The notes below the pieces were generated by a model that saw only the letters and a program-made list of their open reading frames with translations, was not told where the DNA came from and did no database searches. From positions 34,383 to 98,382 of IMG/VR virus record IMGVR_UViG_3300005537_000022: DNA of 64,000 nt; one strand, 5' to 3'. The stretch comes from a virus. The position numbers and the translations under genes are program-made. Each line of letters opens with the position of its first letter. The stretch's first letter is position 1. This document shows positions 11,129 to 35,824 of the stretch, in pieces.

Positions 11129-11337
11129 GCGGCCGGCTCCCCGTTCCCGCCCTGGCCCGGCACCGGGCGCTTGCGCCGGGCGGCTTCCGCCTCTTCGATG
11201 TCCGGCCTCCGCAGGTAGCGTTCCGCCTGGTCCTCCGGCACCTCGAACTCGTCCCCCGGTTCCAGGTGCCCGGCTTCGGTGAACGCCTGCGGGTGCGTCC
11301 CGGTGTACCTCAGCCGCACTGTGCCGTCGCCGCTCAC
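11125..11337 (-). CDS. Small virion-operon protein
   Basis: PGDEFEVP motif; precedes major tail gene. Confidence 0.6.
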   Translation of the reverse strand: MSGDGTVRLRYTGTHPQAFTEAGHLEPGDEFEVPEDQAERYLRRPDIEEAEAARRKRPVPGQGGNGEPAA

Positions 11338-11777
11338 AGCCCCATCGTCTCCTTAACGGACGCCTCGAACAGCGCGGCCACGGCCGGCCCGATGGCGGCC
11401 ATCGCGTCCTCGGCGAACCTGTTCGGCCGCGTTCCCGGGTGGTTCACCCGCTTCGCGAACATGACGGCCCCGTGCCCGCTGTTGCCGACCCAGCGCAGGG
11501 CGCGGGCGTGGCGGGCCGCGATCGGGTGCGGCCCCGTGCCGCCGATGATGTACTTCGCGTACGAGGCCTGGCTGTAGTACATGACCAGCCGGGAGCCCGC
11601 CGAGGCTTCCTGCCGGTCAGCGACCGACTCGCGGAACGCGCCGGTCCGGAACGGGGCGCGGGCCCGCAGCATCTGCCGTCCGAGCGGCGCCGCCCGCGAA
11701 GCCCACAGGCCCGAGGCGGCCTCCCAGTCGAGCTTCGGGAGCCGGCCCTCGCGCTCCACCGTCATCCTGATGCTCAC
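11334..11777 (-). CDS. Neck / tail completion protein (HK97 gp10-like)
   Basis: AP.RTG, YAKY...GT.PH.I, VNHPGT.PN.F motifs. Confidence 0.8.
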   Translation of the reverse strand: MSIRMTVEREGRLPKLDWEAASGLWASRAAPLGRQMLRARAPFRTGAFRESVADRQEASAGSRLVMYYSQASYAKYIIGGTGPHPIAARHARALRWVGNSGHGAVMFAKRVNHPGTRPNRFAEDAMAAIGPAVAALFEASVKETMGL

Positions 11778-12442: not shown

Positions 12443-13403
12443 TCAGATCACTCTCTTGAAGGGGTCGAGCAGCAGTTCCATCTCCGTCGCGATGTCCGAG
12501 ATCCCGGAGCCGGAGGAAACCTTCTCCCCGGTCAGGGTCTGGATCGTCACCGAGTCGATGCCGCCTTCCAGCGCCTGGATCGCCGCGGCGTAGACCGCGC
12601 TCTCGATGACCGTCGCGGGAAGCGCGGACACGACCGTGCCCGCCTCATGCTGGTACTGGAGCGGCGACGACAGGGTGAGCATGCCGGGGCCGGACAGGGC
12701 GAATCCCGCGCCGTTCGGCAGGGGGAACGCCGTGTTCGCGGTCACCGACGCGACGACGGCCTGCTCGGTCGCGCCGCCGTCGTAGGCGAAGCCGGCCGCC
12801 CCCGCCCACCCGGTCACGTCGTCGACGTACAGCGTTTCCGCCCCCTCCGGGGCGTCCTCGGTGAGCGACGTGTGCGGCCAGCCGTTCACGTGCGACGCCT
12901 GGACGAGCAGGCCGCCCCTGCGCCTGGCCGCCGCCTGCCACGAGATATAGCCGGGGGCGACGTCGACCGTCCAGCTCCCGTCCGGCCCGGTCGGGGCCGC
13001 GGAGTCGCCGGAGAAGACCAGCGGGTGGCGGATCCGCCACTGCCCGGCCGGAACCGGCGTCCACGCCGCGGGGAACGACCGCGCGGGCGACGTCTGGATC
13101 GCCAGGACCTCGGTGACCGGCCAGCGTTTCATGATGAGCACGCCGTTGCCCGTATCCGGGTCGACGTTGCAGCGGGGCATCCCCGGGCCCGCGGGGTACT
13201 CGGTGTTCACCGTGGCCCGCAGCACCTGGTGAACATAGGTGTCGATGCGGCTGGTGGCCTGCCAGCACATCTGCCGGGCGGCGGCGAGCTGGTCGGCCTC
13301 GGTGGACTGCGGGGCGGGGATGATCGACCACGACACGCCGGGGTAAACCAACCGGGGCGTTGATCAGCATTTGAGGGCTGACATAAGGCGTCCCGAGTGA
13401 CAT
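12443..13403 (-). CDS. Head-tail adaptor/connector protein, split by a 10-nt coding gap at 13337-13346
   Basis: GGAGGTG RBS and ATG at 13403 give MSLGTPYVSPQMLINAPVG; the body (VSWSIIP...LLDPFKRVI) is in another frame; C-terminal LL.P(F/Y)KR is typical of adaptors. Confidence 0.75.
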
Positions 13404-13462
13404 TGGCATCACCTCCCGGGGAAGACGCTGGGCGATCGGCAGCTTCGCGAACTGGCCGGCCG

Positions 13463-13828
13463 CTAGCAGCCGACGGCGGCCTGGGTTGCGAAGGCCGTCG
13501 TCGTCCCCGCCCACTTGAGGTACCAGCCCGCGGGCAGCCGGACGGTGTACACCGTCCCCGCCGTGGCCGCGGCCGACGCCATGATCGTGGCGGCGTTCGC
13601 CGCCGACGTGGGGCCGATCGTGATGGACGTCGCGGTACCCGAGGTCGTGCACTCCAGGTAAACCTGGTAATCCCGGGTGGTGTCCGAGAGCTGGGCCGCG
13701 GTGCCGCTCGCGAACGACGGGGTGAGGACGGGGGCTGAGGCGGCCGTGCTCGTCCCGGCCGGGAACGACACGGGGTCGGTAGGGACGCCGGCCAGGCTGC
13801 CGGGGCCGGACGCAAGGGCGTTGGACAT
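13463..13828 (-). CDS. Putative head decoration / virion protein
   Basis: A/T/S-rich, GGAGG RBS, downstream of capsid gene. Confidence 0.6.
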   Translation of the reverse strand: MSNALASGPGSLAGVPTDPVSFPAGTSTAASAPVLTPSFASGTAAQLSDTTRDYQVYLECTTSGTATSITIGPTSAANAATIMASAAATAGTVYTVRLPAGWYLKWAGTTTAFATQAAVGC

Positions 13829-13945
13829 GAAAACCTCCGGGCATGGGAAAGCGCCCCGGGGCGGTCGCGTCCGGGGATGGAACGAGCGGTGCAGGGGTTT
13901 TCTCACGCGGCCTGGCGCGGGTCGCGCCGGGTTCGCGGCGGCTTG

Positions 13946-14519: not shown

Positions 14520-16022
14520 TTAGCCCACGTTCTGGAGCACGGACATGGCGAGCGGGGCGCGGTTCACGAAGGCGCCGTTGCACCTCAGCTCCGTCTCGCG
14601 GCGCGGGCCGCCGCCGGCCGTGTTCGCGATCCGGGAGGCGGCGTACTCGAACTGCGTCATGTCCCGCAGCGCCCGGTAGGCGAGCACCGAGGAAATGTTG
14701 GCCTGCGGGAACGGAACGCGGTCGCTGCGCGCGATGATCGTGCCCGGGGGCACCGACACGTGGACCTCGATCGGCACGGGAATGCCGCCCGCGGGGGCGT
14801 TGAGCACGTGCCCGACCCGGCCGCCGGCCACGACGTCGACACGGCCGTTCTTGTCGGTGTTGAGGAACGTCGTCGCCGAGTTGCTGCCCAGGATCAGGTT
14901 GGCTATCTCCTGCGCTTGGGCCGCGTTCACCATGATCGCGGTCGGGGAGACCTTGATCGACTGCCACAGCGCCAGGAACAGGTACTGCTCGATCTCGGTG
15001 ACGGTGCCGCCGGTCAGGGTGAGGGCGGCCCCGTTGAGGCTCGTGTTGATCGACGGGTTAGCAGTGCCGGTGCCGGTGGTGACCCACTGGCCGGTGGCGT
15101 TGTAGTCGCCGGACAGGGTGGCGAGCAGGCCGTCCATGTCCGCGGCGTTCGCCGACCCGTTGTCGGCGCCGCTGTTGAAGGTCGGGACCGTGTTCGCGAT
15201 GCCCTTCCAGCCGGTCGACAGGTCCGGGACGGTGATGGCGGACGGGAGCGCCTGATTCGAGGTGATGACCTTGGTCATCGTGACCGCGTTGGTGGTCGTG
15301 GTCGTGTAGTAGTACCAGGTCGTGCCGTTGCTGGACTGGAACCAGTCGTAGCAGACCGCGCCGCGTACGCTGGCCACCGAGGCGGTGATCGAGTTCGTCG
15401 TCCCGGACCCGAACGTGGTGCTGCTGCTGTTGCCCTGGCTGTTGCCCGAGCCGTAGTAGTACCCGCTGCCAGTCCGGGCCGCAACGCCGACGTACACCTG
15501 GACGGCGCCGATGGTGCCGCCTGTGCCGACCTGGGTGAGCGACGGCGCCGCCGGCTGGACCAGCGCGAACGACTGCGCGCCGATGAACTTGCGGTCCTTC
15601 GCGATCAGCATCTGGTTGACCAGGTTGAACGTCGCGACCGCGAAGGGGTCCGCGTATCCCAGGGCGAGATCGTAGGAGTCCTGGGTGACGATGGTGTCGA
15701 ACGACAGCACCTTGTATGCGGCCTGGAAGTCCTGCTCGCTGAAGACCAGCTCGGAGCCGGCGTAGTCGAACGGGGTGGCCGGGTCGGGCTGGGCGGCGTT
15801 GGTGTTGAGGATCGCCCGCCAGACGGCGTACTTGTTTCCGTCCTGGCTCTTCTCCGTCGGGATCATGTCGAAGAACGGGGTGACGACCGGGACCTGGGAG
15901 ACCAGGCCGGACAGGTCGTAGGACGTGATTCCGGTGGCAGTGGTGATGCCGGTGGTCTGCGCCTTGGCGATATCCGCCATGGCCGCGAGGGTCTCCTCGG
16001 AGATCTCCTGCTGCGTGGGCAC
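14520..16022 (-). CDS. Major capsid protein (about 500 aa, with inserted beta-rich domain)
   Basis: GTG start with AAGGAGG RBS; follows scaffold; YDLS...VPVVTPF N-terminus; strongly biased codons. Confidence 0.85.
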   Translation of the reverse strand: MPTQQEISEETLAAMADIAKAQTTGITTATGITSYDLSGLVSQVPVVTPFFDMIPTEKSQDGNKYAVWRAILNTNAAQPDPATPFDYAGSELVFSEQDFQAAYKVLSFDTIVTQDSYDLALGYADPFAVATFNLVNQMLIAKDRKFIGAQSFALVQPAAPSLTQVGTGGTIGAVQVYVGVAARTGSGYYYGSGNSQGNSSSTTFGSGTTNSITASVASVRGAVCYDWFQSSNGTTWYYYTTTTTNAVTMTKVITSNQALPSAITVPDLSTGWKGIANTVPTFNSGADNGSANAADMDGLLATLSGDYNATGQWVTTGTGTANPSINTSLNGAALTLTGGTVTEIEQYLFLALWQSIKVSPTAIMVNAAQAQEIANLILGSNSATTFLNTDKNGRVDVVAGGRVGHVLNAPAGGIPVPIEVHVSVPPGTIIARSDRVPFPQANISSVLAYRALRDMTQFEYAASRIANTAGGGPRRETELRCNGAFVNRAPLAMSVLQNVG

Positions 16023-16099
16023 GATGCCTCCTTCCGGGGGGCATGCGAAAGCCCCCGGAGCGGTGCTCACGGGGGCTGGTTCGGTCTTAGGGCGGAGCG

Positions 16100-21931: not shown

Positions 21932-22734
21932 GCCGGGACTATCGCGCACCGGCAGCCGCCCGGGTGGGCCGGCGGGCACAGGTCGCCCGAAGGCCACTCG
22001 ATCCCGGCGGGACGGGGATCGGCGGCGGCATTGTCCAGGCACGCCTTGCAGGTCCGGGAGTCCTGTACGGCGGCCCACCGGAGCAGTCCCGCGCCGTTCG
22101 CCTGGTACCACTCCAGCGCGGCCAGGCCGCCCGCGACCGTGATCTGGGTGACGGCCAGCCCCTCGGCGTAAGCCCCGTCCGCCACGGCGGTCTCCAGCAT
22201 GCCCGCGAGCTCGGACGCGGCCGTGTCCGGATCCCAGCCGGCGAGCACGCGGGAGACTACGTTCAGGTAGCCGTCCCCGATCGCCTGGGCGATGCCCGGC
22301 CCTTCCCCGCCGCCGGAGCCGCCGGCGAGCGAGGCGAGCAGCGCGGCCAGGCCGAGCGCCTCCGCCAGCCGCCTCGCCTTCGCCGTGTCTCCCGGGGTCC
22401 AGCCGGCCGTGTCCGCGTCGGCGCTGCCCGCCATCGCGGCCTGCGCCGACGTCCCGCCGATCGCCAGGGCGTCGGCGGCGATCCGCTCGGCCAGGTCCCC
22501 GGCCGGGACCGTGATCCCCTGCGACCGCAGCCAGGCGAGAGCCGCCGCGTTCCGCTCCCGCTTGCCGGGCGCGCTGCCGTCCTGATCCGGGTGGCCGGCC
22601 GTGTACGCGGAGGCGATGGCGTCCAGTTTCCCGCGCGAGAGCGCCTGCCGCGCCGCGGCGGTGACCTTCGGGGCCCACCAGGCGGCGGCGGCCAGGTCTA
22701 GCTTCCAGCCCGGCCAGTCACCAGGGCTTTTGGG
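21928..22734 (-). CDS. MuF-like minor head protein domain (probably translated as a frameshift fusion to portal)
   Basis: W.AVQDSRTC..C...PPAHPGGCRCAIVP C-terminus; no own start/RBS; frame entered at CCCAAAA. Confidence 0.85.
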   Translation of the reverse strand, partial: PKSPGDWPGWKLDLAAAAWWAPKVTAAARQALSRGKLDAIASAYTAGHPDQDGSAPGKRERNAAALAWLRSQGITVPAGDLAERIAADALAIGGTSAQAAMAGSADADTAGWTPGDTAKARRLAEALGLAALLASLAGGSGGGEGPGIAQAIGDGYLNVVSRVLAGWDPDTAASELAGMLETAVADGAYAEGLAVTQITVAGGLAALEWYQANGAGLLRWAAVQDSRTCKACLDNAAADPRPAGIEWPSGDLCPPAHPGGCRCAIVPA

Positions 22735-25061
22735 ACGGGCATCGCCGCCTTCACCGCGACGGTCTCTTCCGGCTCGCAGCCCAGCAGCGGCAGCACGTCG
22801 CCGAGGGAGGCGGCCAGCTCTTCCCGCAGCATCGGGTTGCCGGGCAGGTCGCACGGGTCAGCCCACATGATCGCCTCGACGGCGTCGCCGTCCGGGTCGT
22901 CCGGGTTCGGCACCACGGCACCGCCGCGGACGGGGACCGCGGCCTCGGACTCGGTCGTCCACACGATGCCCCGGTAGATGCCGTCCCCGGCCGTCCACTC
23001 GCCCGTCACCGAGCCGGGAGGGGGAACGGCCCCGGTTTCCTCTGCCCATTCGCGCCATGCGGCGCGCAGCGGGGACTCATCGCCCTCGACGTGCCCGCCG
23101 GGGAACTCGATCTTGCCTCCGGCCGGGTCGCCGGGGTCGAGCGCCCGCTGGATCATCAGGACGCGGCCGGTGTCGGCGGCGAGGACCGCGAGGCCCGCGA
23201 CCGCGACCTCGCCCGCGGCCTTGCGGACCGCGAGCCTTCCGTCGTCGTTGAGGTTGTGCGCCCAGACCCCTGGCACCGAGCGGAACTCGAAGTCCCGCCA
23301 CTCGCCATCCTTGCGGCGGGCCTTCGCGAACCGGCGGAATGCCCGCATCTCCTTGAGGACGGCCGTGCTGCGGACCGCATCCGCGTCCTCGTCATCGTCG
23401 TCATCGCCGGCGAGGTCGTAGGAGTAGATCCCCGTCTCCGCGGTGATCCCCGCGGAGGCGTTCCCGGCCGGGGCCGCGCCCTCGCCTTCCTTGGCGACGG
23501 GCTGGCCGGGCCCGGCCTCGTCGGCCGGCGTCATCTTCGGCTGCGGGGGCGGCGCCGGTGGCATCGCGGACTCGCCGAACTCCCGCTCGGCCAGCGACAT
23601 GACCTTGATCGGCGGGTTCGGCAGGACGCCCTCCGTGCCGCCGAAGACCGTCCGCGGCAGCTCCGCGCCTTCCTCGGGCAGCCCGTCCGCCGGGTCGACG
23701 TCGCCCGCGACGGCCAGCAGCGAGGAAACCGGGATGGGCCCGGCTCTCTCCGTGTAGATGAACCGGGGGATCGGCCGGGCGTCGGTCAGCCCGTAGCGCA
23801 TCTCGCGGATCTCGGACGGGCCGATGACGCCCATCTTCATGTACTTGTCGTCGGCGTTCGCCTGGTCTACGCGGTCGTCCTGCTCCTCGCCGAGGTCGAA
23901 CGCGAACTTGAGCGGAAGCTGCATGTCGTCTTGCAGGAAAGCGGTCAGGATGTCCTGCACGTGGTGGGCGAGCGGGAGGTCGCCGACGCGGTGCTGCACG
24001 TCGGCCTGCGACTCGCCGCTGCTGCGGTTCACGCTCTCGGTGAACCCGAGGTCGCTGGGGACCACGGAGTAGGCGGCGCACGTCTTGCGCATCAGGAACA
24101 AGCTGAACTTGTCGTCGAAGTCCTTCTCGCTGCTCCACGCGAACGACGAGCCGCCCGGGATCCACCGGATCTGGTGCTTGCCCTCCTGGTTGCCCAGCAT
24201 GAAGCCGTCCCAGTATTCCTGGAACTGCTCGATCTGCTCCGGGGTCCAGCTTTCGGGGGCGCCCGCGAAGGCGGCGGGCAGGTTCCCGGCGGTGAACCGC
24301 TGGAGGAAGTAGAGCTGGAACCGGATGTCGGTGTTGGCGTTGAGGAGGATGTCCTCCAGCGGCGCCCGGCCGTAAGCCGAGTCGTCCTGCGGGTCGTACG
24401 GCTCGTAGATCAGGTCGTCGCGGGTCAGCCAGTCCCAGGCCAGCCCGTTGACGTACTGGACGTAGGCGGGGGCGGGAGAGTCCGGGGGGTCGCCCCAGTA
24501 GTCGAGCAGCGGCGCGATCGTGGTGCCGTCGACGACCCTCAGGCCGACGCACCGGCCGGCCCGGTTCCGCATCCGGGCCAGGGTGCCGGCGTCGTAGGAC
24601 AGTACGCCCCTCATCCACTTGGCCAGCCACGGCTTGAACAGGGTCTTGCGGTCCGGCCGCTTCAGCGCGCGCATCCCGGCGGCGATGTCATCGGCGACGT
24701 CGCCGTCGTGGCCGTCGGCGGCGACGAGCTTCCAGTCCAGGCTGCGGAGGCTGGCGATCCTGTGGCGGATGCAGAGCTGGGCTACGTCGTAGGAGCCGAT
24801 CAGGCCCTTGAGCGTCTCGAAGCTGACCCGTTCGTGGGTGCGCGGCCGGGTGGCCACGTTGTACTGCGGGACGTACTCCTTGGACCGCGGGGTGCGGGAG
24901 AACCCGTCGTACGGCGCGATCGGCTCGCCTGGCGAGAACGGGGACGACGGGCCCATCTGGGCGCGTTCCTCGGCTGCCTCGATCGCGGGCGGGACGGAGC
25001 TGCCGAAGACCTTCGCGACAGGCACCGGCGCGGCGGCGGCGGCGCGGGAACGGACGCTCAT
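22698..25061 (-). CDS. Portal protein with C-terminal NUDIX hydrolase domain
   Basis: VDGTTI, YGRAPLE, YSVVPSDLG portal motifs; intact Nudix box GHVEGDESPLRAAWREWAEETG. Confidence 0.92.
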   Translation of the reverse strand: MSVRSRAAAAAPVPVAKVFGSSVPPAIEAAEERAQMGPSSPFSPGEPIAPYDGFSRTPRSKEYVPQYNVATRPRTHERVSFETLKGLIGSYDVAQLCIRHRIASLRSLDWKLVAADGHDGDVADDIAAGMRALKRPDRKTLFKPWLAKWMRGVLSYDAGTLARMRNRAGRCVGLRVVDGTTIAPLLDYWGDPPDSPAPAYVQYVNGLAWDWLTRDDLIYEPYDPQDDSAYGRAPLEDILLNANTDIRFQLYFLQRFTAGNLPAAFAGAPESWTPEQIEQFQEYWDGFMLGNQEGKHQIRWIPGGSSFAWSSEKDFDDKFSLFLMRKTCAAYSVVPSDLGFTESVNRSSGESQADVQHRVGDLPLAHHVQDILTAFLQDDMQLPLKFAFDLGEEQDDRVDQANADDKYMKMGVIGPSEIREMRYGLTDARPIPRFIYTERAGPIPVSSLLAVAGDVDPADGLPEEGAELPRTVFGGTEGVLPNPPIKVMSLAEREFGESAMPPAPPPQPKMTPADEAGPGQPVAKEGEGAAPAGNASAGITAETGIYSYDLAGDDDDDEDADAVRSTAVLKEMRAFRRFAKARRKDGEWRDFEFRSVPGVWAHNLNDDGRLAVRKAAGEVAVAGLAVLAADTGRVLMIQRALDPGDPAGGKIEFPGGHVEGDESPLRAAWREWAEETGAVPPPGSVTGEWTAGDGIYRGIVWTTESEAAVPVRGGAVVPNPDDPDGDAVEAIMWADPCDLPGNPMLREELAASLGDVLPLLGCEPEETVAVKAAMPVPKALVTGRAGS

Positions 25062-34797: not shown

Positions 34798-35250
34798 TCA
34801 TCCGCCTATCCACTGCGACACCTGCGCAGCCCACTGCTGCACGGGGAACACGGTCAGCACGCCGTGCAGGTGGCCGCCGCTCAGCGCCGCCGCGAAGGGA
34901 AGCGCCAGCGCGAACCAGGCGACCCTGGGCCCGGGTTCCAGCCACGCGCCGAGGACCGCCGCGAGGAACAGCGTGAAGCCGCTGATGACGACGATCTCGT
35001 GCCCGGTGCCCGTGCGGACGGGGCCCGCCATCGACACCAGGCTGGCCTCCCAGCCGGTCAGGATGCCGCCGAGGGGCGACACGACGACCGCCGCGCCGCC
35101 GGTGAACATGCCGAAGATCAGCAGCCGGTACGCCCACGGGTGCAGGCGGGGCGGCAGGTTCCCGCCGTGGCGTCCCGCGAACCATAGCAGCGCGATTACC
35201 GCGCCGAGGAGGATGACGCCGAACGAGGACCCGGCGATGGCGGCCGTCAT
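34798..35250 (-). CDS. Small multi-pass membrane protein (Spd-like)
   Basis: About four hydrophobic segments; in tra operon. Confidence 0.65.
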   Translation of the reverse strand: MTAAIAGSSFGVILLGAVIALLWFAGRHGGNLPPRLHPWAYRLLIFGMFTGGAAVVVSPLGGILTGWEASLVSMAGPVRTGTGHEIVVISGFTLFLAAVLGAWLEPGPRVAWFALALPFAAALSGGHLHGVLTVFPVQQWAAQVSQWIGG

Positions 35251-35561
35251 GCCGCCAGCCCGTTCCGCCCGGAGTTCCGCCCGGCGATGATCGCGCGCCG
35301 TTCCCGTTCGGTCGTGCCGCCCCACACGCCCCACAGCTCGCCGGCGTCCAGCGCGTGCTCGAGGCAGGCGCCCCGGACGGGGCAGGCGGCGCAGACGCGG
35401 AGGGCGGGGGCGGCAGACTGGCCGGGGTCCGGGTAGAACAGGGCCGGGTCGGTCTCGGCGCACAGCGCGCCGTCCTGCCAGGGGGGCTCTCCCGGCTGGT
35501 CCCAGCCGGGAACCGGGGGCTGCCAGGCCAGGACCTGGATGACGCGGGGATTCGCGGTCAC
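35247..35561 (-). CDS. whiB: WhiB-family regulator
   Basis: ALCAETDPALFYP...C..CPVR..C...GVWGGTTERER. Confidence 0.92.
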   Translation of the reverse strand: MTANPRVIQVLAWQPPVPGWDQPGEPPWQDGALCAETDPALFYPDPGQSAAPALRVCAACPVRGACLEHALDAGELWGVWGGTTERERRAIIAGRNSGRNGLAA

Positions 35562-35824
35562 GCCGCGCTCCTTTCCCGGCGCAGCACGGTGGCCCGCTCG
35601 CGGGCGGTCAGGCCGCCGAACACGCCGTGCCCGATCCGGTTCGCGAGCGCGAACCGAAGGCACTCGGGGCGCACCGTGCAGCCGGCGCACCAGGTGATCG
35701 CCTTGCGTGCCTGCGCCTTGAACGCCCGGGTGTCCGGGCGGGCGGCCGGGAAGAAGATCTCCGGGTCGGCGGTGCGGCAGGCGGCGAGCGCCGTCCAGTC
35801 ACGGACGGGAAACGGGGCGGTCAC
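35558..35824 (-). CDS. whiB: WhiB-family regulator (second)
   Basis: AACRTADPEIFFP...C..C.VR.EC...GVFGGLT.RER. Confidence 0.9.
   Translation of the reverse strand: MTAPFPVRDWTALAACRTADPEIFFPAARPDTRAFKAQARKAITWCAGCTVRPECLRFALANRIGHGVFGGLTARERATVLRRERSAA

What the first reader, a model, noticed from the sequence alone, without database searches (positions are those of the whole stretch)
13334..13403. TTA-triggered 10-nt coding gap in the head-tail adaptor gene: candidate programmed translational bypass
Seen (minus strand): RBS-ATG...AAC GCC CCG GTT GGT [TTA CCCC GGC] GTG TCG TGG. The start and the body of the gene are in different frames. Taking off at GGT (13347-13349), skipping exactly 10 nt that begin with the very rare TTA codon, and landing on the synonymous GGC (13337-13339) yields NAPVGVSWSIIP. 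Reading TTA normally leads into an unrelated frame ending at 12645. Upstream codons are unusually A/T-ending. Known: a UUA-associated 10-nt bypass has been proposed for the terminase gene of Streptomyces phage Hau3, and UUA decoding depends on the developmentally regulated bldA tRNA. Inference: virion completion is gated by host tRNA-Leu(UAA) level, here in a different gene.
Basis: partly seen in the sequence, partly recalled or inferred. Interest (0 to 1): 0.88.

Follow-up and report, generated by a model that had tools for sequence, protein, structure and literature searches.

The report
Ribosome hop in phage neck gene
A single-copy virion (neck/adaptor-like) gene of an uncultured 98-kb high-GC soil phage is broken by 10 real extra bases that begin with the almost unused codon TTA. 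Sixteen differently built versions of such breaks in related phages indicate that ribosomes stall on TTA and hop over the insert, a decoding trick published so far only for a few Streptomyces phage terminase genes.

Summary
On the minus strand a ribosome-binding site and ATG (13403) open a 19-codon segment, MSLGTPYVSPQMLINAPVG. It ends at GGT (13349-13347). Ten bases follow (TTACCCCGGC, 13346-13337), and the 297-codon body (VSWSIIP...) resumes at GTG 13336 in another frame.

About 100 homologous proteins, and all but two of 97 unbroken related DNA loci (L139, L007), read APxG(V/I)SW with no extra residue.

The decisive evidence is comparative. Among about 120 distinct related loci, 16 carry short inserts of 5 to 26 nt at six sites near the gene's 5' end. 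Fifteen begin with an in-frame TTA and one with TAG. Two contain in-frame stops. All keep an intact body.

In 14 of 16, the last three bases of the insert match the preceding codon at positions 2 and 3. That fits peptidyl-tRNA take-off and landing; here the pair is GGT to GGC.

A frameshift, a pseudogene, a later start or an assembly error fit poorly.

This is a new member of the phiHau3-type UUA bypass class, in a different gene. The link to host tRNA-Leu(UAA) level is inferred, not shown.

Earlier notes of this scan report the same kind of gap on other DNA.

The parts
13409..13417 (-). Shine-Dalgarno-like GGGAGGTGA, 5 nt upstream of the ATG
   Evidence: Read directly. No comparable motif precedes TTG 13351 or GTG 13336.
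13347..13403 (-). Pre-gap coding segment: 19 codons, MSLGTPYVSPQMLINAPVG
   Evidence: Matches the conserved N-terminus of about 100 homologs. Against the nearest unbroken relative L008 there are 8 synonymous and 2 non-synonymous codon differences.
13347..13349 (-). Take-off codon GGT (Gly)
   Evidence: Last codon that aligns with homologs in the upstream frame.
13337..13346 (-). 10-nt coding gap TTACCCCGGC
   Evidence: Absent from all unbroken homologs. Present in an independent contig at depth about 49.
13344..13346 (-). In-frame TTA (UUA), the proposed slow or 'hungry' A-site codon
   Evidence: TTA is 3 of 18,967 called codons in this genome. The phage encodes no tRNA-Leu.
13337..13339 (-). 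Landing codon GGC (Gly), synonymous with the take-off codon
   Evidence: in 14 of 16 gaps the last triplet matches the take-off codon at positions 2 and 3.
12443..13336 (-). Post-gap body: resume codon GTG 13336-13334, 297 codons, stop at 12445-12443. The joined product is 316 aa, a neck/adaptor-like protein.
   Evidence: AlphaFold2 model with pLDDT 80.6. Whole-length fold matches to phage neck chains.
12645..13346 (-). 0-frame read-on if UUA is decoded as Leu: 233 unrelated codons plus stop (aberrant product)

Best explanation
The gene at 13403-12443 (minus strand) is one functional gene for a 316-aa neck/adaptor-like virion protein, interrupted by a 10-nt non-coding insert that ribosomes bypass. 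Proposed steps follow. (1) Translation starts at ATG 13403 (shown: RBS and a conserved N-terminus under purifying selection). (2) With peptidyl-tRNA-Gly on GGT in the P site, the A site holds UUA, which is nearly unused in this phage and presumably poorly served by the actinobacterial host (inferred). (3) The stalled ribosome releases codon-anticodon pairing, slides 10 nt and re-pairs the same tRNA-Gly on GGC (inferred from the take-off/landing rule seen across 16 gaps). (4) Decoding resumes at GTG and gives ...NAPVG-VSWSIIP... (the product sequence is shown by homology; the event itself is not shown). Ribosomes that do decode UUA run into a 233-codon junk frame. The yield of full-length protein should therefore rise when charged tRNA-Leu(UAA) is scarce. 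Whether the phage uses this as a sensor of host state, or the insert is a tolerated selfish scar, is open.
For: Homologs: about 100 proteins and all but two of 97 unbroken loci (L139, L007) read TPY..APxG(V/I)SW with no indel at the junction. Sixteen distinct gapped relatives were found. Their inserts are 5, 5, 7 (five loci), 8, 8, 9, 10 (three loci), 11, 12 and 26 nt, at six sites. Fifteen start with an in-frame TTA and one with TAG. Two are in frame but contain TGA or TAG. Lengths congruent to 0, 1 and 2 mod 3 all occur, so no single frameshift rule fits. Every body ORF is intact (289-308 codons; 260 for the more distal L046 gap) and every joined product aligns without an indel at the junction. 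The landing triplet matches the take-off codon at positions 2 and 3 (wobble allowed) in 14 of 16 gaps, against 2.6 expected, p < 5e-5, and only at offset 0. Gapped genes are scattered over the tree. Close relatives (79-87% identity) carry different gaps, and genes only 52% identical share an identical gap. Outside gaps, TTA occurs in only 3 of about 18,000 body codons of the family and in 3 of 18,967 codons of this genome. The gene is single copy. Bases are confirmed. Published precedent: phiHau3 terminase has two 10-nt UUA gaps and two prophages have 7-nt gaps; a junction peptide was seen by mass spectrometry in E. coli with UAA substituted, and full-length product was seen in S. coelicolor (PMC10732093).
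Against: There is no protein, ribosome-profiling or RNA evidence for this gene. The host is unknown, so limiting tRNA-Leu(UAA) is assumed. No significant RNA structure surrounds the gaps (z -0.9 to +0.5 here, mean z +0.3 over 16 gaps). [quoted passage not shown] A +1 event cannot be excluded for this single gene on sequence alone. Two landing triplets (L135, L052) do not fit the rule fully.
Confidence: 0.82

Rival explanations
1. A programmed +1 frameshift rather than a hop. Either UUA is read as Leu and tRNA-Pro slips on CCC-C (product …VG-LPG-VSW…), or the incoming tRNA-Tyr binds out of frame at U-UAC (…VG-YPG-VSW…). Either route adds three residues.
For: The two frames differ by +1, and CCC-C is a slippery run. 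The phiHau3 authors also could not exclude +1 from sequence alone.
Against: The junction is length-invariant in all but two of 97 unbroken homologs. Relatives have gaps of 5, 8, 9, 11, 12 and 26 nt, some with in-frame stops (TTA-TGA, TTA-TAG) or a TAG in the +1 frame (TTAG in eight distinct loci: L014, L115, L116, L137, L120, L135, L018 and, as TTA-TAG, L046). A +1 shift cannot rescue any of these. The landing-codon rule has no role in a +1 model.
Confidence: 0.07
2. The insert is an inactivating indel and the gene is a pseudogene in a decaying or defective phage.
For: A 10-nt insertion breaks the frame. The contig comes from a metagenome, so viability is unknown.
Against: Body ORFs remain intact in all 16 gapped loci. 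The pre-gap segment is under purifying selection: 8 synonymous against 2 non-synonymous differences. The gene is single copy in an otherwise complete virion module with terminase, portal, protease, capsid and tape measure. The insert begins with the rarest codon, in frame, 15 of 16 times. One gapped form was recovered in three records (L014, L015, L069), drawn from at least two sample datasets.
Confidence: 0.03
3. The protein starts after the gap, at TTG 13351 or GTG 13336 (as the public gene call P0001 does), and the upstream 19 codons are not part of it.
For: An automatic gene call starts at GTG 13336 (P0001, 297 aa). Open start codons exist there.
Against: No SD-like motif precedes those starts, whereas GGGAGGTGA precedes ATG 13403. 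The 19 upstream codons encode the family's conserved N-terminus in this locus and in all 16 gapped loci. Homologs are 312-326 aa long.
Confidence: 0.04
4. A rival about purpose that is compatible with the hop. The insert is a selfish scar that protects the gene from a homing endonuclease, as with mobE and the T4 gene 60 gap. Bypass merely neutralises it, and there is no sensing of host state.
For: A LAGLIDADG endonuclease gene lies directly upstream, 79-190 nt from the gap, in gapped L052, L126 and L046. Enrichment against unbroken loci is 3 of 16 versus 2 of 97, Fisher p = 0.02. Gaps turn over fast among close relatives, and an identical gap sits in genes only 52% identical. GC3 is depressed before gaps, and the unbroken, endonuclease-bearing L131 has a run of rare synonymous codons at the same spot. 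Earlier scan notes raised this link.
Against: There is no endonuclease gene next to the gap in this window, and no homolog of those endonucleases in this genome. Thirteen of 16 gapped loci show none in the DNA held. The statistic rests on small numbers.
Confidence: 0.35

Closest known systems
UUA-led coding gaps in the large terminase of Streptomyces phage phiHau3 (g6/g7/g8) and of the StrepC.1 and S. catenulae prophages (Smith et al. 2013; Antonov et al. 2023, PMC10732093)
   Same: A short non-coding insert (10 nt; 7 nt in the prophages) begins with an in-frame UUA inside a conserved, essential virion-assembly gene of a high-GC actinophage. Homologs are uninterrupted. A take-off/landing codon pair has been proposed.
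   Different: The gene differs (neck/adaptor-like, not terminase). The gap lies at codon 20, not mid-gene. No SD-like element or significant stem-loop is found here. The family shows far more cases: 16 gaps at 6 sites, 5-26 nt long, against 3 of 100 terminases. There is no experimental support here.
Phage T4 gene 60 50-nt bypass with the mobE homing endonuclease
   Same: A Gly take-off codon with a matched landing codon and a slow A-site codon. The relative L126 has ACA-TAG followed by a 26-nt gap, with an endonuclease gene upstream.
   Different: The gap is 10 nt, not 50. The trigger is a rare sense codon rather than a stop. No nascent-peptide or hairpin signal is demonstrated. No endonuclease lies next to this window's gap.
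Translational bypass elements ('byps') in Magnusiomyces capitatus mitochondria (Lang et al. 2014, cited in PMC10732093)
   Same: Many short inserts lie in conserved genes, a non-decodable codon follows take-off, take-off and landing codons match, and the inserts show signs of mobility.
   Different: Those elements are 27-55 nt long, occur in a mitochondrial system and form a family related in sequence. The gaps here are 5-26 nt and share only the leading TTA.
Hungry-codon hopping in E. coli (Weiss et al. 1987; Gallant and Lindsley; cited in PMC10732093; recalled from own knowledge)
   Same: A-site starvation lets the peptidyl-tRNA slide a few nucleotides to a cognate or near-cognate triplet.
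   Different: Those are low-level laboratory events. Here the arrangement is fixed in natural, essential genes.
Mycobacteriophage Bxb1 gp50/gp51 primase, a possible UUA-linked bypass (PMC12646305)
   Same: A rare UUA lies at a frame break in an actinophage gene.
   Different: That case involves overlapping ORFs and its mechanism is undecided. It is a replication gene.

Membership tests
phiHau3-type UUA-triggered translational bypass | A short insert that begins with an in-frame UUA interrupts an otherwise conserved ORF | tested here: met
   GGT-[TTACCCCGGC]-GTG at 13349-13334
phiHau3-type UUA-triggered translational bypass | Homologs are continuous across the junction with no extra residues | tested here: met
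   All but two of 97 unbroken loci (L139, L007) and about 100 proteins have no indel there; the joined product aligns without a gap
phiHau3-type UUA-triggered translational bypass | The take-off codon and the last triplet of the gap can pair with the same peptidyl-tRNA | tested here: met
   GGT/GGC here; 14 of 16 gaps match at positions 2 and 3, p < 5e-5
phiHau3-type UUA-triggered translational bypass | The host decodes UUA poorly (rare codon, bldA-type limiting tRNA) | not testable with these tools
   The host is unknown. Indirect signs: 71.7% GC, a WhiB gene, TTA in 3 of 18,967 codons, no phage tRNA-Leu, and prophage relatives in Kitasatospora and Catenulispora
phiHau3-type UUA-triggered translational bypass | A 5' stem-loop and an internal SD-like stimulator, as proposed for phiHau3 | tested here: not met
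   z -0.9 to +0.5 here and mean z +0.3 over 16 gaps; no SD-like motif in the 27 nt ending with the take-off codon here. These features are proposed, not proven, for the family.
phiHau3-type UUA-triggered translational bypass | The junction peptide or full-length product is demonstrated | not testable with these tools
   No cultured phage and no RNA run listed
Phage head-to-tail adaptor / neck protein | Gene lies between the major capsid gene and the tail-completion gene in the virion module | tested here: met
   Capsid-like ORF at 14520-16070 (phrog_13692) and Neck1/tail-completion at 11334-11777 (phrog_5); portal, terminase, protease and tape measure
Phage head-to-tail adaptor / neck protein | Fold resembles solved adaptor or neck chains | tested here: inconclusive
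   Whole-length matches to 8q01_b, 8qje_W, 6toa_D, 9lw9_C, 8hqo_P and 9ilp_a: Z 7.6-8.6, rmsd 3.8-6.5, 145-177 residues aligned. An inserted beta-barrel (residues 158-245) matches tail and EF-Tu domain-2 barrels. Foldseek E 2.6e-3.
Phage head-to-tail adaptor / neck protein | Sequence membership in a curated adaptor family | tested here: not met
   No Pfam, PHROG or PDB sequence hit
T4 gene 60-type bypass cassette | A homing endonuclease gene lies next to the gap | tested here: not met
   None within 1 kb in the window and no homolog in this genome. Present in relatives L052, L126 and L046.

The most novel reading that the evidence does not exclude
UUA-headed micro-gaps may be a widespread and fast-evolving class of bypass elements in virion genes of soil actinophages, not an oddity of three terminase genes. 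They would follow a simple rule: take-off codon NXY, then UUA (or a stop), then 0-23 nt, then a landing triplet nXY'. Their origin would be tied to homing endonucleases, generalising the logic of T4 gene 60. This neck gene family alone would then hold at least 10 independent gains.
Probability: 0.5. Interest if true: 0.85.

Novelty: new member of a known kind. Interest (0 to 1): 0.7.

Why it matters
Translational bypassing is one of the rarest departures from collinear decoding. In bacteria the published natural cases are T4 gene 60 and its relatives, and the phiHau3-type terminase gaps (3 of 100 genes surveyed in PMC10732093).

This gene family offers 16 natural variants of one event. They differ in gap length (5-26 nt), trigger (UUA or UAG), take-off codon (Gly, Thr, Ile, Ser, Cys) and quality of the landing match. 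Together they amount to a ready-made mutational series for working out the rules of short-range hopping.

The finding also matters for annotation. Gene callers truncate such genes (P0001 starts after the gap) or would label them pseudogenes.

If yield depends on tRNA-Leu(UAA), the gap links virion assembly to the developmental state of the host.

Tried and rejected
The DNA behind proteins that start at VSW or MSW (P0085, P0087, P0096) could not be fetched. Scans of viral contigs with P0087 and P0085 found only unbroken relatives.
- Pfam and PHROGs gave nothing for the protein. A PDB sequence profile search gave nothing. tblastn found no homolog in 50,697 cultured-phage records.
- RNA folding found no structure better than shuffles, here or across the 16 gaps. 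No SD-like motif lies before the gaps.
- A crude GC3-based scan for other TTA-led frame breaks in this genome and in flanking genes of the loci gave only gene ends and antisense artefacts. This scan is insensitive and does not exclude other gaps.
- No RNA holder was listed for the region, so expression could not be examined. The only DNA holder may be the source sample, so one search is an independent assembly, not an independent sample.
- The TraB-like gene noted earlier was not confirmed by Pfam: only a weak MarR_2 match.
- In 401 Streptomycetaceae genomes, eight carry full-length, uninterrupted prophage copies and none is gapped. No cultured lysogen with a gap is therefore available from that sample.

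Full report
**1. The observation**

On the minus strand the upstream gene ends at 13463. After 60 nt comes GGGAGGTGA (13417-13409) and then ATG 13403. The frame reads MSLGTPYVSPQMLINAPVG and ends at GGT 13349-13347. It continues with TTA (13346-13344) into an unrelated frame that stays open for 233 codons, to the stop at 12647-12645.

The long gene body (VSWSIIP..., 297 codons, stop at 12445-12443) is in the +1 frame. It is closed just upstream by TGA 13366-13364.

**2. What homologs show**

A search with the body found 558 relatives. Most are 312-326 aa long, 10-24 residues longer than the ORF from TTG 13351. Their N-termini read M.LGTPY(V/I)TPxMLxNAPxG(V/I)SWSIIP, that is, the window's two pieces joined with nothing in between. 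The window therefore carries exactly 10 extra bases, TTACCCCGGC, between GGT and GTG.

I fetched DNA of related loci: 7 from genomes, 54 from viral contigs, 80 from metagenomes and further ones later. I screened them with tblastn using 80 full-length references. Of 97 distinct unbroken loci, only L139 and L007 have any indel between TPY and SW(S)II.

**3. The decisive result: the same design recurs**

Sixteen distinct loci, out of about 120 distinct sequences, have a short insert at one of six sites in the 5' part of the gene. Notation below is take-off codon, [gap], resume codon.

| Site | Locus | Sequence | Gap length |
|---|---|---|---|
| After the G of APxG | window | GGT[TTACCCCGGC]GTG | 10 nt |
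| After the G of APxG | L014 = L015 = L069 | GGA[TTAGCGA]GTT | 7 nt |
| After the G of APxG | L066 | GGT[TTAAGGC]GTT | 7 nt |
| After the G of APxG | L101 | GGT[TTACCGGC]CTT | 8 nt |
| After the G of APxG | L115 | GGT[TTAGC]ATC | 5 nt |
| After the T of APT | L052 | ACA[TTATGAGAGACC]GGC | 12 nt |
| After the T of APT | L109 | ACT[TTATGTGAACC]GGC | 11 nt |
| After the T of APT | L116 and L137 | ACA[TTAGGTCGCA]GGC | 10 nt |
| After the T of APT | L120 | ACA[TTAGACG]GGC | 7 nt |
| After the T of APT | L124 | ACT[TTAAGCC]GGC | 7 nt |
| After the T of APT | L126 | ACA[TAG + 23 nt]GGA | 26 nt |
| Further downstream | L133 | ATT[TTACGCTC]GAC | 8 nt |
| Further downstream | L135 | TCT[TTAGC]CTC | 5 nt |
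| Further downstream | L018 | ATT[TTAGCTC]CCT | 7 nt |
| Further downstream | L046 | TGT[TTATAGGGC]AAC | 9 nt |

- Fifteen gaps begin with TTA in the frame of the upstream segment. One begins with the stop codon TAG.
- Gap lengths fall in all three classes mod 3.
- The 9-nt and 12-nt gaps are in frame but carry TAG or TGA directly after TTA.
- In every case the conserved N-terminal peptide is kept in the upstream frame. The body stays open: 289-308 codons after the N-terminal gaps and 260 after the more distal L046 gap.
- Every joined product aligns to the nearest reference with no indel at the junction.

Outside gaps, TTA is used for a conserved Leu only 3 times in 17,984 body codons of 61 loci.

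**4. Take-off and landing**

The last three bases of the gap match the preceding codon at position 2 in 15 of 16 cases, and at position 3 (wobble allowed) in 15 of 16. Both positions match in 14 of 16. Random triplets from the same genes give 2.6 on average and never more than 10 in 20,000 resamplings. The signal exists only at that exact offset. This is what re-pairing of the P-site peptidyl-tRNA predicts. The window has the cleanest form, GGT to GGC, both readable by one tRNA-Gly.

**5. Independence and selection**

On a maximum-likelihood tree of 119 distinct bodies, the gapped genes are scattered among unbroken ones.
- L124, L126 and L133 are 79-87% identical yet carry three different gaps. 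Their sister L131 has none.
- L116 and L137 are only 52% identical yet share an identical gap.
- The window's nearest relatives, L008 and L062 (about 71-72% identity), are unbroken.
- Against L008, the 19 pre-gap codons differ at 8 synonymous and 2 non-synonymous positions. The pre-gap segment is therefore translated and constrained.
- The gene is single copy in this 98,382-nt virus record.
- The surrounding module is complete: terminase, portal-NUDIX, protease, capsid-like gene, Neck1/tail completion and tape measure.

**6. Are the bases real?**

A Logan contig of 82 kb, from a soil run that may be the source sample, reproduces 12900-13900 without a difference at word depth about 49. The gapped form of L014 was recovered in three records, from at least two sample datasets.

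**7. Codon context**

This genome is 71.7% GC. It encodes only tRNA-Ser(GCU) and tRNA-Asp(GUC). TTA fills 3 of 18,967 codons in 87 strictly called genes, which is 3 of 1,548 Leu codons. A WhiB gene and prophage relatives in Kitasatospora and Catenulispora point to an actinobacterial host, but the host itself is unknown.

**8. Signals looked for and not found**

- No structure stands out against shuffles. The window can form a modest hairpin (-16.1 kcal/mol) with UUA in its loop, but 36 of 200 shuffles fold as well.
- No SD-like motif precedes the gaps.
- A real feature is depressed GC3 in the 19 codons before a gap: 0.67 against 0.90 in the body. Unbroken genes show 0.80 against 0.86. Mann-Whitney p = 3e-6. 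Its meaning is open. It could reflect slow or unstructured approach, or synonymous changes left by endonuclease-driven conversion.

**9. Homing endonucleases**

Earlier notes of this scan report the same kind of TTA-led gaps in portal, tail-tube, capsid and other genes of at least 35 genomes, often beside endonuclease genes. I tested that lead here.
- A LAGLIDADG gene lies directly upstream of the gapped gene in L052, L126 and L046.
- It also lies upstream of unbroken L034/L086 and L131.
- The enrichment is 3 of 16 against 2 of 97, Fisher p = 0.02.
- The window has no such gene near the gap and no homolog anywhere in its genome.

The link is real in part of the family but does not explain this locus directly.

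**10. What the protein is**

An AlphaFold2 model (pLDDT 80.6, pTM 0.76) matches phage neck chains over its whole length: phage 812, RcGTA, Mycofy1, DT57C and T5, with Z 7.6-8.6. An inserted beta-barrel occupies residues 158-245. With the gene's position in the module, 'head-to-tail adaptor-like' is reasonable but not proven.

**11. Comparison with what is known**

Smith et al. (2013) proposed, and Antonov et al. (2023, PMC10732093) supported, UUA-triggered bypass of two 10-nt gaps in the phiHau3 terminase and of 7-nt gaps in two prophages. That was 3 of 100 terminases. The evidence was full-length product in S. coelicolor and a junction peptide in E. coli after UUA was replaced by UAA. A 2025 paper raises the same possibility for the Bxb1 primase. 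I found no paper describing such gaps in a neck or adaptor gene, or in this number. The window is therefore a new member of a known kind. The family-wide series and the landing rule add mechanistic material.

**12. Verdict**

A programmed hop over 13346-13337 is the best explanation (0.82). If UUA is decoded, the ribosome makes junk. Full-length protein should therefore be favoured when charged tRNA-Leu(UAA) is scarce. That regulatory reading, and the alternative that the gap is a selfish scar, remain inferences.

Noticed in passing
L126:1978-2010: The homolog has a 26-nt gap that begins with the stop codon TAG instead of TTA (ACA-TAG...CCA-GGA). A LAGLIDADG endonuclease gene ends 89 nt upstream, which makes a miniature of the T4 gene 60/mobE arrangement.
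   Followed up: partly
L052:1900-2910; L126:909-1892; L046:2146-2919; L034:1915-2889; L131:67-432: LAGLIDADG homing-endonuclease genes are inserted in the same intergenic spot, directly upstream of the neck gene, in five lineages. Three of those lineages are gapped and two are not.
   Followed up: partly
L131:520-560: This unbroken, endonuclease-bearing homolog uses a run of rare A/T-ending synonymous codons (GCA CCA ACC GGG ATA GAC TGG TCA ACG ATT GGT) exactly where relatives carry gaps. It may be target-site immunity achieved by substitution.
   Followed up: no
window 13347-13403 and the equivalent segment in 15 gapped loci: GC3 of the 19 codons before a gap is about 0.23 below the gene body in gapped genes, against 0.06 in unbroken genes (p = 3e-6).
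   Followed up: yes
window 22698-25061 (minus strand): The portal protein is fused to a C-terminal NUDIX domain (Pfam Phage_portal plus NUDIX).
   Followed up: partly
window 48845 and 57695: Two of the three other in-frame TTA codons in strictly called genes lie 2-6 codons before the stop of their ORF. The third is codon 7 of a 440-aa ORF (window 44498) and may lie upstream of the true start.
   Followed up: no
window 35247-35690 (minus strand): A WhiB-family gene (PF02467, 80.6 bits) indicates an actinobacterial host. The neighbouring 704-aa ORF, noted earlier as TraB-like, gave only a weak MarR_2 match.
   Followed up: partly
L003:5402-5764 and similar places in about 25 loci: A second gene about 2.4 kb downstream shares the beta-barrel region (query residues about 120-290) with the neck protein. 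No such second hit exists in the window's genome.
   Followed up: no
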